Shown: positions 30,501 to 50,593 of the stretch, one piece after another
How the letters are laid out: the number at the start of each line of letters is the position of its first letter
Numbering within the stretch: position 1 is the first letter of the stretch
NCBI RefSeq assembly: GCF_004010195.1
Contig: NC_057752.1
Coordinates: 15,833,348-15,897,347 of the forward strand
Direction: 5' to 3'
DNA: 64,000 nt
Source of the DNA: Chiloscyllium plagiosum
Lineage: Eukaryota
Program-made: the position numbers and the translations under genes
The notes under the pieces: model-generated
What the model was told of the DNA's origin: nothing
Database searches by the model: none
Seen by the model: only the letters and a program-made list of their open reading frames with translations

Positions 30501-32104
30501 CTTAGGTGAATTGGCGATGCTGCATTGCCTGTAGTGCTCAGGATGTGTAGGTTAGGTGCATTAGTTTGGGGTAAATACAGGATAATAGGATTGGGGAATG
30601 GGTCTGGGTGGGTTACTTTTCAGAGCACCAGTGTGGTCTTGTGTCAAACGGCCTGTTTCCACATTGTAGGGATTCTGTGATAATAAGATGGAAAAAGAAT
30701 ACACAAGCAAACAAGGTTCAAATCTCCAGGCCACAAGATGGAAAGCTATTTGCTCCTCTCAGTCCTTTTGAATTTTTCAATAATGAGATACTGGGAAGCA
30801 GCCACCCACAGGGATATCAAACAGTGACTGGTGGCTCCACATGGTTGTTATTGTGGACAAGTGGGCGGGGGCAAGGTGTATCTCCCTTAACCATGGGACC
30901 TACAGCACTGTCCCGGCCAGACACTAATGAATAGCGTGGGGCTCGGTGGTTACACAGCACCAGGGATCCGGGTTCAATCCCACATTTGGGGAACTGTCTG
31001 TGTGGAGTTTGCATGTTCTCCCTGTGTCTGCGTAGGTTTCCTCACACAGTCCAAAGATGTGCAAGTTTGGTAGATTGGCCATGCTAAATTGCCTATAGTG
31101 TCTAGAGATGTGCAGGCTAGGTGGGTTAATCATGGGAAATGCAGGGAAAGGGTATGGGAAACAGGTCGCTGTGGACCCATTGGGCCAAGTGGCCTGTTTC
31201 CACACTGTAGGGATTCCATTATTCTATCAGATACTGTTGTCTTCACAGTGGCAGTCATCCTTTGATTTAAAGGTTGGTCTGGTGAACTTGAGTCTGTTAT
31301 ATAAATTGTTTCTTTTAAGCTGAGTTGGATTTTTTTGTCTCTTTTACCCACAATGAATGTGAAATGCTATCTGTCTGCAGGATTCAGATATTTTCTACTC
31401 TTTACTGCACTTGGCACTTCCAACTTTGTAACAATCTGCAGCTGAAATAATCAGAGCTGTTACCAGGAAGTTGTTTTTAACTTCAATGATTCTTGGTACT
31501 GTTCAGGCTCACAATTTCCCTCTTTAGTTTCATAAAACAACATTATATTGCACAGCTCTATATTATACAACACTTAACGTTCATGTTACAAAGCTTTCAT
31601 GTTTTTTGGTACTGGGTTCCATGATTTTACACGTTTTGGTATTTAGTAAATGCTTACCTTTTGTTGTAGTTGGTGAGTGTAATGGATTACAAATCCAATC
31701 TCAGCTTGCCAGCATAACAGAGAAGGCTAGCTCTTAATCCAAAATGTGAAGGTAAACTATTCAGAAAAATGTTCTCCTCCTTATCATTCAGTGAGCATGT
31801 CTAAAATATTTTTGAGTGAAAACAGGATGTAACTTTGTTGTCAACTGAAAGTGATGGGTTGTGCTAGATACTAAGTCAATTACTTGAGGAAAAGTAACAG
31901 TTTAAACAAAAAGGTCATAATGTAAAGAGATTCTCCCATCTATTTCATTCTATTCCATTTTCTGTTTGTGCCTTAGCTCTTACACTTGCGATGGATCGAG
32001 ATGGGTCAAGTGGTGGGGTGATTCGCTTGGCAGCTGTCTCTGAGAAAGGAGTCGAGCGCAGCATCATCTCTGGGCGCCAACTGCCAAAGTTTCAGTCTTC
32101 GTGA
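3510..32104 (+). CDS. PSMB6: Proteasome 20S subunit beta 6 (beta1, constitutive), exons 2-6; 5'-partial. join(3510..3577,5015..5146,17485..17614,19723..19867,31977..32104)
   Basis: The five exons total 603 nt (200 aa + TGA), are all bounded by AG/GT and join in phase. Translation: [200 protein letters not shown]. Thr1/Asp17/Lys33 are present. Thr31 and Arg45 point to constitutive beta1 rather than PSMB9. Confidence 0.96.
5015..5146 (+). CDS. PSMB6: PSMB6 exon 3 (132 nt)
   Basis: Acceptor ttttttctccttcag|G TCA TAC; donor CAC AG|gttggt; encodes [43 protein letters not shown] (inside ORF 4959..5162). Confidence 0.96.
6571..6890 (+). mobile_element. tRNA-derived HE1/V-SINE-type SINE (representative of about 12 copies)
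   Basis: Pol III A-box (GGTACAGTGG) and B-box (GGTTCAATTCC), central gtgtggagtttgcacattctccccg domain, LINE-like tail ending (TAATC)n. Other copies: ~908-1250+, 11171-11466-, 28056-28395+, 30478-30680+, 30935-31220+, 46990-47215-, 55212-55765+, 57381-57696-, 60013-60296+, 60867-61045+, 62248-62586+. Confidence 0.9.
9700..10375 (+). mobile_element. 5'-truncated Penelope-like element (GIY-YIG endonuclease plus 3' repeat) nested in a CR1
   Basis: ORF 9585..10280 contains [18 protein letters not shown]...RIHEH...REFLEAWHS, a PLE GIY-YIG domain. A hammerhead-like motif follows at 10262-10299. Confidence 0.9.
10262..10299 (+). ncRNA. Hammerhead-like motif in a Poseidon-type PLE repeat
   Basis: ca-CUGAGGA-u-GUCACC(uagaca)GGGGAC-GAAA-CA-UC-ug. 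A homologous motif lies on - at ~39101-39139 and a decayed one at ~36470-36512. Confidence 0.6.
12497..13621. mobile_element. Penelope-like element, third family, with long inverted terminal repeats; spans a 427-N gap
   Basis: 12497-12700 is the reverse complement of ~13375-13580. GIY-YIG C-terminal remnant ([19 protein letters not shown]). 15-bp TSD AAATCTGAGTTGTTG at 12482-12496 and 13622-13636. Related fragments at ~7600-8120, ~17860-18560 and ~60345-60760. Confidence 0.85.
13637..14860 (-). mobile_element. Rex1/Babar-type LINE RT fragment
   Basis: [45 protein letters not shown]. Confidence 0.8.
15335..15926. mobile_element. Solo LTR-like element, second family
   Basis: Starts TGTTATGA and ends GCATCGTCAC(G), with an imperfect 4-bp TSD (CATA/CATC). 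Related copies at ~5790-6210 (same orientation) and ~35244-35500 (inverted). Confidence 0.7.
15736..15768 (+). repeat. Short interstitial telomeric repeat (CTAACC)5+CTA
   Basis: Perfect vertebrate telomere repeat, flanked by the direct repeat CTTGTGACTA. Confidence 0.9.
15958..16663. mobile_element. Solo LTR (706 bp)
   Basis: Termini TGTTATGA...TCATAACA with a perfect 5-bp TSD CTGTA (15953-15957, 16664-16668). Related partial copies begin TGTTACGACA near 4563 and 12149. Confidence 0.85.
16875..17075. repeat. Short palindromic PLE-derived element
   Basis: About 85-bp near-perfect inverted arms around the spacer ATTCCT. Same family at 6375-6494, 34580-34700, 47755-47940, 51234-51421, 52864-53105, 55453-55593, 58310-58428 and ~59555-59720. 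Confidence 0.85.
17485..17614 (+). CDS. PSMB6: PSMB6 exon 4 (130 nt)
   Basis: Acceptor ctttctttacag|C ATT GAA; donor GGA CAG|gtaagg; encodes [43 protein letters not shown]. Not in the ORF track. Confidence 0.95.
19723..19867 (+). CDS. PSMB6: PSMB6 exon 5 (145 nt)
   Basis: Acceptor ttgtggtcgtag|GTC TAC; donor AAT G|gtgagt; encodes [48 protein letters not shown]. Confidence 0.95.
20312..26066 (-). mobile_element. Full-length, inactivated L1-clade LINE in PSMB6 intron 5 (antisense)
   Basis: 12-bp TSD AGTTGCATTTCT at 20300-20311 and 26067-26078; A-rich 3' end. ORF1 remnants at ~25009-25860 ([19 protein letters not shown]). ORF2 remnants at ~20700-24410: APE motifs TWNVKG, LQETH, GGDFN, RIDMFF, SDH; RT motif [10 protein letters not shown]-terminal HCLWTC. 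Many stops and frameshifts. Confidence 0.93.
26690..30250 (-). mobile_element. CR1 LINE with ORF1 (SGNH-esterase type) and internally deleted ORF2
   Basis: VCCLPGA...[25 protein letters not shown]...[23 protein letters not shown]...[19 protein letters not shown] is inserted at ~28056-28395. Confidence 0.88.
31977..32104 (+). CDS. PSMB6: PSMB6 exon 6, coding part with stop codon
   Basis: Acceptor ttctgtttgtgccttag|CT CTT ACA; encodes [45 protein letters not shown] at 32102-32104. Confidence 0.95.
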
Positions 32105-32421
32105 AGTGGCTGGAAAGGGCAGTTCATTACTTGATTTCGACATTTCTTCATTGCTGTCAATTAGATTTCATGTGATGTATTATGCAGCATGCAGCAGTGT
32201 TGTTTCAAGGGTGCCAGTAGCAACCTTCAGGAAATATTGGAAATGAAATTATTCAAAAGAATATTGTTTGAATGTTTGTTTCATGATGCTATGGTTACTA
32301 TTGTATTAGGAACTGTTATGCTTAAAGAAATCTGAGCACCCAGCAATTAAACAACAGAACTATGCCACAGGATTTCATTGTTTTATACAAAAGAAAACCT
32401 GTTTTTTAACCAATAAGATTT

Positions 32422-32427
32422 AATAAA
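32422..32427 (+). terminator. Candidate PSMB6 polyadenylation signal
   Basis: First AATAAA about 320 nt after the stop codon. Alternatives at 32683-32688 and 32746-32751. Confidence 0.55.
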
Positions 32428-49655: not shown

Positions 49656-50339
49656 ATTTGAGGTAGTTCACTTGATTGGGAGTAGAGGATTGTGGGCCAA
49701 TGGTCCCTCTAGGATGTGCAACCACTGGGAGGTTCCTTACAAGCTGATTAATGTGTCACACATTGGCTTCTGTTTGCATATGCCATTATTATGGTGGAAA
49801 GGTATTGTAGTAGTGAGTGGGGAGGGTATGGGGTAGGGAGCAAGGGGTAGATGGGGGCACGGAGTGGGGTCTTTTTTCGATTAACAGTGGGACAAGCTGG
49901 GTCCATTATCACTTGAGAGTTTGCAATCACAAGAGGTCATTTTATTGAACCATACAAGATCCTGAAGGGATTTGATAGGTTGAACACAGAGGATGTGGAG
50001 GGGCCAGCACTAGGCAATGCAGTTTAACAATAAGACAAAGTGAAAATAAATTGTTTCTTTGAGTCTTTGAAACTCTCTCCTCTAGAAAGTGGAGGCAGAT
50101 TCATCAATTTTTTTTAAGAAAGAGATATCTAGGCACTTGACCAATAAGACAGTTAAAGGGTATTAGAGATTGGGCAGGACAAACATGACTTTGTCAAATG
50201 CTAGGGCAGGCCTGAGGGGCCGAACAACTTATTCCAGCATCTGCAGTCATTGTTTTTACCTAGCTTATTTTTCTGCCAATTCATATATTCACATAATGTA
50301 AAGAATGAGAAGTTTGGTTCCTCTGAGGGTACACATTAC

Positions 50340-50593
50340 CTGCTGACTGGTCAGTCCTATTGCATTTCCCAGTTCTTGTTGCTGGGAAGCAGTGAGATAC
50401 CGCTGCAGCTGGAAACGTTGTTGGAGAACCCGCAGCTGCTCAGCACTGAAGATTGTCCGACCTTTGTATTTCTTTGATATGGATTCCTCAGTCAATTCTC
50501 TCTCTTCTACAGAATCTAACCAGGAGTCTCCATGGGCCTTGAGCCTTTCCAAATTATCCTGGGAATCTGCCTCAGATAGGGTGGTGTTGGAGG
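50340..50593 (-). CDS. Homeobox exon (helices 1-2) of an ANTP/NK-like homeobox gene, NANOG-like
   Basis: Acceptor tttatctttgttgattgcag|CC (phase 1); donor CAG CAG|gtaatg (phase 0). Encodes ...KYKGRTIFSAEQLRVLQQRFQLQRYLTASQQQELGNAIGLTSQQ with homeodomain landmarks R5, F8, Q12, L13, L16, F20, Y25, L26, L34, L40. The intron falls after residue 44, the position known in NANOG, DLX and related genes. Confidence 0.88.

What the first reader, a model, noticed from the sequence alone, without database searches (positions are those of the whole stretch)
31977..50593. NANOG-like gene tail-to-tail with PSMB6: possible ohnologue from the 17p13/12p13 paralogon
Seen: PSMB6 (+) and the homeobox gene (-) converge about 18 kb apart in this assembly. 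Knowledge: human PSMB6 lies in 17p13 (ENO3, CHD3, VAMP2, SLC2A4), which is paralogous to 12p13 (ENO2, CHD4, VAMP1, SLC2A3), where NANOG lies. Inference: this could be a whole-genome-duplication paralogue of NANOG kept in cartilaginous fish and lost in mammals. Caveat: the linkage crosses the 500-N gap.
Basis: inference. Interest (0 to 1): 0.7.

Follow-up and report, generated by a model that had tools for sequence, protein, structure and literature searches.

The report
Shark NANOG pair at third locus
This shark gene is one of two side-by-side copies of the stem-cell regulator NANOG, lying among genes that in humans sit on 17p13, not at NANOG's human address on 12p13; the 'tail-to-tail with PSMB6' layout is likely an assembly error, and the copies are more likely relocated true NANOGs than leftovers of a whole-genome duplication, though that remains possible.

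Summary
The coordinates are right but the geometry is not. The window holds only the first three exons of the homeobox gene (A). Its last two exons, and a second NANOG-like gene (B), lie on unplaced contigs. B's last exon sits 126 kb upstream of PSMB6 on the opposite strand, so the 178-kb piece between two 500-N joins is most likely flipped. Inferred order: A → B → tRNAs, HES7-like, GLTPD2-like → PSMB6, same strand, ≥150 kb apart. The linkage itself holds: A and PSMB6 share a contig length in 5 of 5 other assemblies, and the neighbours (TP53, ENO3-like, ALOX, RNF167-like) are 17p13-type. A's homeodomain is already published as shark Nanog (PMC7190326 supplement). A, B and bony-vertebrate NANOG form one clade (95/97), with B closer (90/95, keeps K43), but AU tests are not decisive. 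17p13 and 12p13 are 1R paralogues, so an ohnologue is possible (about 0.3). Orthology with gene movement is likelier (about 0.6), as NANOG already occupies different loci in ray- and lobe-finned fishes. A 12p13 copy cannot be tested here: that block is largely missing from this assembly. The scan had not noted this on other DNA.

The parts
58846..59020 (-). nanog A exon 1 (ATG at 59020, phase-1 GT donor)
   Evidence: 86-89% identity to P0001 residues 1-59; splice site read
52634..52762 (-). nanog A optional 129-nt exon (phase 1-1; present in P0001 and P0018, skipped in P0003)
   Evidence: 98% identity to P0001 59-102; AG/GT ends; isoform sequences
50340..50593 (-). nanog A exon with homeodomain residues 1-44; intron after Q44. 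The two remaining exons are outside the window on G000:C99662 (16042-15941 and 14423-13998, -)
   Evidence: Pfam PF00046 E 8e-9; best single-domain PDB hits are NANOG chains
45595..45887 (.). 28-bp minisatellite in the intron after the homeobox exon; the same array continues on C99662:18657-20261 and marks the likely true join
44908..45407 (.). 500-N scaffolding join (C43:15,878,255); one of several exact-500 joins on C43; the orientation of the piece to its left is most likely wrong
44781..44907 (+). degenerate TTAGGG-like repeat ending the contig left of the gap
31977..32104 (+). PSMB6 last coding exon with stop
3510..19869 (+). PSMB6 internal exons (starting at about 3510, 5016, 17477, 19723); exon 1 lies 1.4 kb left of the window
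   Evidence: tblastn with P0010

Best explanation
The homeobox gene is the upstream member (A) of a tandem pair of elasmobranch NANOG-family genes in a 17p13-type block, likely co-oriented with PSMB6 and at least 150 kb from it, and likely the shark counterpart of bony-vertebrate NANOG at a locus that differs because the gene moved. Shown: exon structure, the second gene, the 17p13-type neighbours, shared contig lengths in other assemblies. Inferred: the inversion of the PSMB6 piece; that B (K43) is the closer orthologue and A (S42, Q43) an older tandem paralogue lost in bony vertebrates; that three lineages hold NANOG at three loci (17p13-like, 12p13, TM9SF1-IPO4) through two moves. Predicted function, from family knowledge and untested here: both proteins would be NK-like homeodomain transcription factors (T47, Q50, N51, M54) binding TAAT-core sites in early embryonic and germ-line cells; neither sequence shows a mammalian-type tryptophan repeat.
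For: A's homeodomain matches letter for letter the 54 residues listed as Chiloscyllium punctatum Nanog in PMC7190326 table S1B. Homeodomain tree, 60 columns, 40 rows: A+B+bony NANOG 95/97, B+bony NANOG 90/95, ray-fin plus lobe-fin NANOG 74/92; the same clades appear under JTT. A is 35-38/60 identical to the 8 bony NANOGs and at most 35/60 to anything else outside its own group. Intron after residue 44, as in NANOG and BSX. NANOG lies by TM9SF1-IPO4 in ray-finned fish and by SLC2A3-AICDA in lobe-finned vertebrates, so it has moved at least once (PMC3894937). No third NANOG-like gene surfaced. The helix-3 motif scan gave 7 hits: A, B and five others, read from their sequences as two barx, two ventx and bsx. 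A turtle NANOG query ranked A and B first among split-homeodomain exons. All 8 other NANOG-like representatives looked up were from bony vertebrates.
Against: Landing by chance on a segment paralogous to 12p13 is a coincidence that this reading must accept. It needs two moves of an intron-bearing gene. The AU test rejected only 1 of 7 topologies (B with BSX, p 0.016); (A,B) p 0.32, A with ventx p 0.25, A with BSX p 0.22. B's best PDB hits are BarH-like chains, ahead of NANOG. The absence of a 12p13 copy is unproven because the block is missing here. No read or contig spanning the inferred joins was seen.
Confidence: 0.6

Rival explanations
1. Hidden paralogy. NANOG predates the first vertebrate genome duplication; the 17p13-side copy (now A and B) survived in cartilaginous fish, and the 12p13-side copy survived in bony vertebrates and later moved in ray-finned fish.
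For: The flanks are 17p13-type: TP53 at C43:12.77 Mb, ENO3-like at 16.21 Mb, ALOX15B-like, GLTPD-family, HES-family and PA-domain exons. PMC8040251 places ENO3/CHD3/VAMP2/SLC2A4/TP53 and ENO2/CHD4/VAMP1/SLC2A3 in one paralogon, in quads that split at 1R. It needs only one move. The linkage is conserved in 5 of 5 assemblies.
Against: It needs reciprocal losses plus loss of both the 1p36 and 3q copies. If B is sister to bony NANOG (90/95), the A/B tandem duplication would also predate 1R. No species with both copies was found. No paralogue of a direct 12p13 neighbour of NANOG was seen among the exons identified in about 0.6 Mb (a partial scan: 122 candidate frames). The SLC2A4-like scaffold C101902 shows no homeobox in its sequenced parts. 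PMC7190326 puts a hagfish nanog-like gene at the ventx locus instead.
Confidence: 0.3
2. Gene A is not a true NANOG but a separately derived NK-like gene (from ventx or bsx) that resembles NANOG by fast evolution; only B, or neither, is NANOG.
For: A lacks both Y42 and K43, described as unique to NANOG orthologues (PMC3201656). The AU test does not reject A with ventx or A with BSX. The published tree that named it Nanog contained no bony-vertebrate NANOG.
Against: The maximum-likelihood clade with NANOG has 95/97 support. NANOG chains are the best single-domain PDB hits. The genome has its own two ventx genes on C22 and bsx on C35. A sits in direct tandem with B.
Confidence: 0.08
3. The link to PSMB6 and the 17p13 block is wholly an assembly artefact.
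For: The window's join is a 500-N scaffolding gap with a TTAGGG-like contig edge, and its orientation is most likely wrong.
Against: B exon 4 and PSMB6 lie on one piece with no 500-N join between them. Five other assemblies agree, including a 193.6-kb draft scaffold.
Confidence: 0.02

Closest known systems
Chondrichthyan 'Nanog' of Scerbo and Monsoro-Burq 2020 (PMC7190326, supplement table S1B)
   Same: Gene A's homeodomain is identical to their Chiloscyllium punctatum Nanog; their 7 shark and ray Nanog rows are all A-type.
   Different: They list no B-type sequence. The text I could read gives no locus for shark nanog ('psmb' 0 hits; Fig. S1 is a picture I could not see). Their tree lacks bony-vertebrate NANOG.
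Osteichthyan NANOG (12p13 SLC2A3-AICDA locus; ray-fin TM9SF1-IPO4 locus; PMC3894937)
   Same: Intron after homeodomain residue 44; near-identical helix 3; frequent tandem duplicates (coelacanth, gar, turtles, birds).
   Different: Third genomic location (17p13-type). A has S42/Q43 and B has C42/K43 instead of Y42/K43. That paper found no chondrichthyan NANOG.
POU5F1/POU5F3 pair (PMC9492771; passages mentioning nanog read only)
   Same: A pluripotency-factor family with two gnathostome paralogues; recalled as the model case of lineage-specific paralogue loss that the ohnologue reading would mirror.
   Different: For POU5 some species keep both paralogues; for NANOG no species with both loci was found here.
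VENTX/VED and BSX
   Same: Same intron position and helix-3 motif; proposed ancestors of NANOG.
   Different: Present as separate genes on C22 and C35 of this genome; 27/60 (ventxA) and 32/60 (bsx) identical to A.

Membership tests
NANOG family | Homeodomain groups with bony-vertebrate NANOG | tested here: met
   Clade support 95/97 (LG) and 94.8/98 (JTT); alternatives for A not rejected by AU
NANOG family | Intron between homeodomain residues 44 and 45 | tested here: met
   Both A and B; shared with BSX and VENTX, so not diagnostic alone
NANOG family | Y42 and K43 (PMC3201656) | tested here: not met
   A: S42 Q43; B: C42 K43. Not absolute: the caecilian NANOG-like P0132 has A42 K43, and the paper says the residues are not required for activity
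NANOG family | Synteny with SLC2A3-AICDA or TM9SF1-IPO4 | tested here: not met
   Neighbours are HES7-like, GLTPD2-like, PSMB6, RNF167-like, ALOX; AICDA-like and TM9SF1-like genes are on unplaced contigs
NANOG family | Early-embryo or germ-line expression and reprogramming activity | not testable with these tools
   No informative RNA run was available
WGD ohnologue of NANOG | Lies on a segment paralogous to the NANOG segment | tested here: met
   TP53, ENO3-like, PSMB6 on C43; paralogon 17 quads A and D
WGD ohnologue of NANOG | A species retains both copies, or a remnant exists at the other locus | tested here: inconclusive
   No third gene found, but TPI1, ENO2 and one class-I GLUT were not found and AICDA-, CHD4- and GAPDH-like exons sit on small unplaced contigs
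WGD ohnologue of NANOG | Gene tree places the split at 1R, before the shark/bony split | tested here: inconclusive
   60 columns, no cyclostome rows; AU rejects 1 of 7 topologies
WGD ohnologue of NANOG | Paralogous immediate neighbours (for example SLC2A4 beside it) | tested here: not met
   None among identified exons in about 0.6 Mb (partial scan); the SLC2A4-like scaffold lacks a homeobox; local order is unreliable at 500-N joins

The most novel reading that the evidence does not exclude
Shark and bony-vertebrate NANOGs are not orthologues but 1R ohnologues kept reciprocally: cartilaginous fish retain a tandem pair on the 17p13 side, bony vertebrates the 12p13 copy. NANOG, with K43 already fixed, would then predate the first vertebrate genome duplication.
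Probability: 0.3. Interest if true: 0.7.

Novelty: new member of a known kind. Interest (0 to 1): 0.45.

Why it matters
The origin of NANOG is unsettled. A 2014 survey found none in cartilaginous fish, and a 2020 paper named one shark gene without testing it against bony-vertebrate NANOG. Here sharks and rays have two genes at a third locus, and the unlisted copy (B) is the one closer to bony NANOG. Functional work on 'shark Nanog' should therefore include B. If the ohnologue reading holds, NANOG is older than 1R and cross-lineage comparisons involve hidden paralogues. Practically, the case also exposes a likely inverted 178-kb piece that splits both genes in this assembly.

Tried and rejected
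Direct tail-to-tail adjacency: rejected. PSMB9 instead of PSMB6: rejected. Pseudogene or truncated gene: rejected; the missing exons exist on C99662, and relatives in 7 other shark and ray species have full-length models. Sequence overlap between contig ends, to close the B joins: none found apart from the minisatellite and dispersed repeats. Sequencing runs: no RNA holder listed; the lay of four runs was swamped by repeats, no listed piece bridged the gap, and it gave nothing on expression. ESM Atlas: generic homeodomain clusters, NANOG fourth at 0.90; uninformative. First tree had one ventx row out of register; corrected. First AU run used a fast search and gave suboptimal trees; repeated after dropping 5 near-redundant rows (3 duplicates had been dropped earlier). 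Forkhead and synaptobrevin searches did not place 12p13 genes on a chromosome. ENO3 assignment is narrow by score (summed bits over three exons: beta 343.4, alpha 341.9, gamma 331.8) and relies on the other enolase lying on C34 with TP73- and CHD5-like genes. The GLUT on C101902 scores GLUT1 123, GLUT4 117, GLUT3 92; I call it SLC2A4-like from its C-terminal exon, by recall. Paper searches found no description of the shark locus or of gene B.
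Full report
Observation. The window is G000:C43:15,833,348-15,897,347. PSMB6 runs on the + strand with its last exon at 31977-32104; a cluster member scores 396 bits against PSMB6 and 287 against PSMB9. A homeobox exon lies at 50340-50593 on the - strand (Pfam E 8e-9) and stops after residue 44 at a GT donor. Two upstream exons are at 58846-59020 and 52634-52762. No exon with the helix-3 motif exists in the window.

What the gap hides. Searching the genome with the full-length relative P0001 placed the two missing exons on unplaced contig C99662. A second NANOG-like gene (B) turned up on unplaced C79904 (exons 2-3). Its exon 1 is on C99662, 8,359 bases downstream of A's stop on the same strand. 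Its exon 4 is on C43 at 15,706,219-15,706,950, on the + strand, 125 kb upstream of the PSMB6 start. Exact 500-N gaps occur at 15,649,052, 15,699,446, 15,878,255 (the window's) and 16,154,662. B exon 4 is 6.3 kb inside the left end of the 178.3-kb piece that PSMB6 closes on the right. Because A and B are co-oriented, the pair must attach to the left end of that piece, so the piece is most likely inverted relative to the one holding A's first exons. Independently, the 28-bp minisatellite just right of the gap continues on C99662 in the same orientation (10 and 38 copies), and nowhere else among 169 records, 1.06 Mb. The inferred order is A → B → tRNA-Leu, tRNA-Leu, tRNA-Ser → HES-family gene on the other strand → GLTP-domain gene → PSMB6, with at least 150 kb from A's stop to PSMB6's start. 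The names HES7, GLTPD2 and RNF167, and their human 17p13 positions, are my recall; the tools gave families only. No read spanning the joins was seen.

Other assemblies. In the draft, the locus tags (chiPu_0019671 and 0019675) leave three models between them, which fits B, HES7-like and GLTPD2-like; I did not see those three records. The scaffold length fits the inverted model (about 198 kb expected). The consecutive RefSeq numbers show linkage but not order, since B has numbers from another batch. PSMB6 was not retrieved for Stegostoma, either Scyliorhinus species or Pristiophorus. A and B coincide in 3 of 3 assemblies, and a catshark draft model on a 25-kb scaffold fuses A to B's exon 3 (P0006).

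The chromosome. C43 carries a p53-family gene at 12.77 Mb, the other two being on C13 and C34. It carries an enolase at 16.21 Mb that scores beta 343.4, alpha 341.9, gamma 331.8 over three exons, lipoxygenase exons at 16.16-16.19 Mb and a PA-domain exon at 15.98 Mb. C34 and C13 hold the 1p36- and 3q-type paralogues (paralogue names partly by recall). Lamb 2021 (PMC8040251; passages and supplement rows read) puts ENO3, CHD3, VAMP2, SLC2A4 and TP53 in quad A and ENO2, CHD4, VAMP1 and SLC2A3 in quad D of paralogon 17, with an ((A,B),(C,D)) split at 1R.

Identity. A's homeodomain equals the sequence listed as Chiloscyllium punctatum Nanog in PMC7190326 (passages and supplement parts 1-3 of 4 read; 11 of 28 pages are pictures). 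That tree contained no bony-vertebrate NANOG and no B-type row. PMC3894937 (parts 1-3 of 5 and one supplement part read) found no chondrichthyan NANOG and described two bony-vertebrate loci. My 60-column tree of 40 rows gives A+B+bony NANOG 95/97 and B+bony NANOG 90/95. The AU test on 35 rows prefers (A,(B,N)) but rejects only B with BSX, 1 of 7 topologies. PMC3201656 (passages read) names Y42 and K43 as NANOG-specific but not essential; A has S42 Q43 and B has C42 K43. Against a clean assignment, B's top PDB hits are BarH-like chains.

Is there a 12p13 copy? A scan for the helix-3 motif gave 7 hits, none a new NANOG. A turtle NANOG query ranked A and B first among split exons. All 8 other NANOG-like representatives that I looked up were newt, caecilian, bird, turtle, sturgeon or bichir, though that top-150 list was crowded by multi-domain proteins. 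The test is weak in this genome: TPI1 was not found at all, nor ENO2, nor a fourth class-I GLUT. GAPDH gave one exon on an unplaced contig. AICDA- and CHD4-like genes are on 4.7- and 3.1-kb contigs. The 12p13 block is largely missing.

Weighing. Orthology with movement needs two moves and one coincidence of landing place, but one move is already documented, and it accommodates B as sister to bony NANOG. The ohnologue reading explains the location directly but needs NANOG, and probably the A/B tandem, to predate 1R, followed by several losses, with no species known to hold both copies. My judgement is about 0.6 against 0.3. Function is inferred from family membership only; expression was not observed.

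Verdict. A known gene family with an unlisted second shark member at an undescribed locus (none found in eight paper searches; subscription papers are mostly not covered, and the synteny figure of PMC7190326 could not be seen). The tail-to-tail arrangement is most likely an assembly artefact; the 17p13-type linkage is real; the ohnologue idea stays open and is directly testable in long-read assemblies. Interest 0.45.

Noticed in passing
G000:C43:15,699,946-15,878,254 (ends at window 44907): A 178-kb piece between two 500-N joins is most likely inverted; unplaced C99662 and C79904 belong in the join.
   Followed up: yes
window 44781-44907 and 15736-15768: TTAGGG-like repeats; the first ends the PSMB6 contig and could mark a sub-telomeric edge if the piece is flipped outward.
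   Followed up: partly
L097:5539-7263 (-), C43 about 15.739 Mb; L097:3292, L098:3530, L098:5331: HES-family gene ending WRPWP beside tRNA-Ser(GCT), tRNA-Leu(AAG) and tRNA-Leu(TAG); by recall, human HES7 also sits in a tRNA cluster.
   Followed up: partly
L036:2526-3047 (+), C43 about 15.930 Mb: IBR-domain (RBR ligase-like) exon, the nearest identified gene upstream of nanog A; not assigned to a family.
   Followed up: no
P0001/P0014, P0010/P0028, P0022/P0040: The C. punctatum chromosome assembly lists two near-identical copies each of A, B and PSMB6 on one 93.8-Mb contig: a real segmental duplication or an uncollapsed haplotype.
   Followed up: no
G000:C101902 (L081, L149:8126-8506): The unplaced SLC2A4-like scaffold also carries an exon that looks like a REL-family gene (by recall).
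   Followed up: no
P0007, P0008, P0043, P0050, P0059: Ray and sawshark A proteins carry short tandem repeats of about 10 residues near the C-terminus that the carpet-shark proteins lack.
   Followed up: no
G000:C22:18.67-18.71 Mb (L134, L135, L140): Two ventx genes in tandem; no ved-type exon matched the motif scan.
   Followed up: partly
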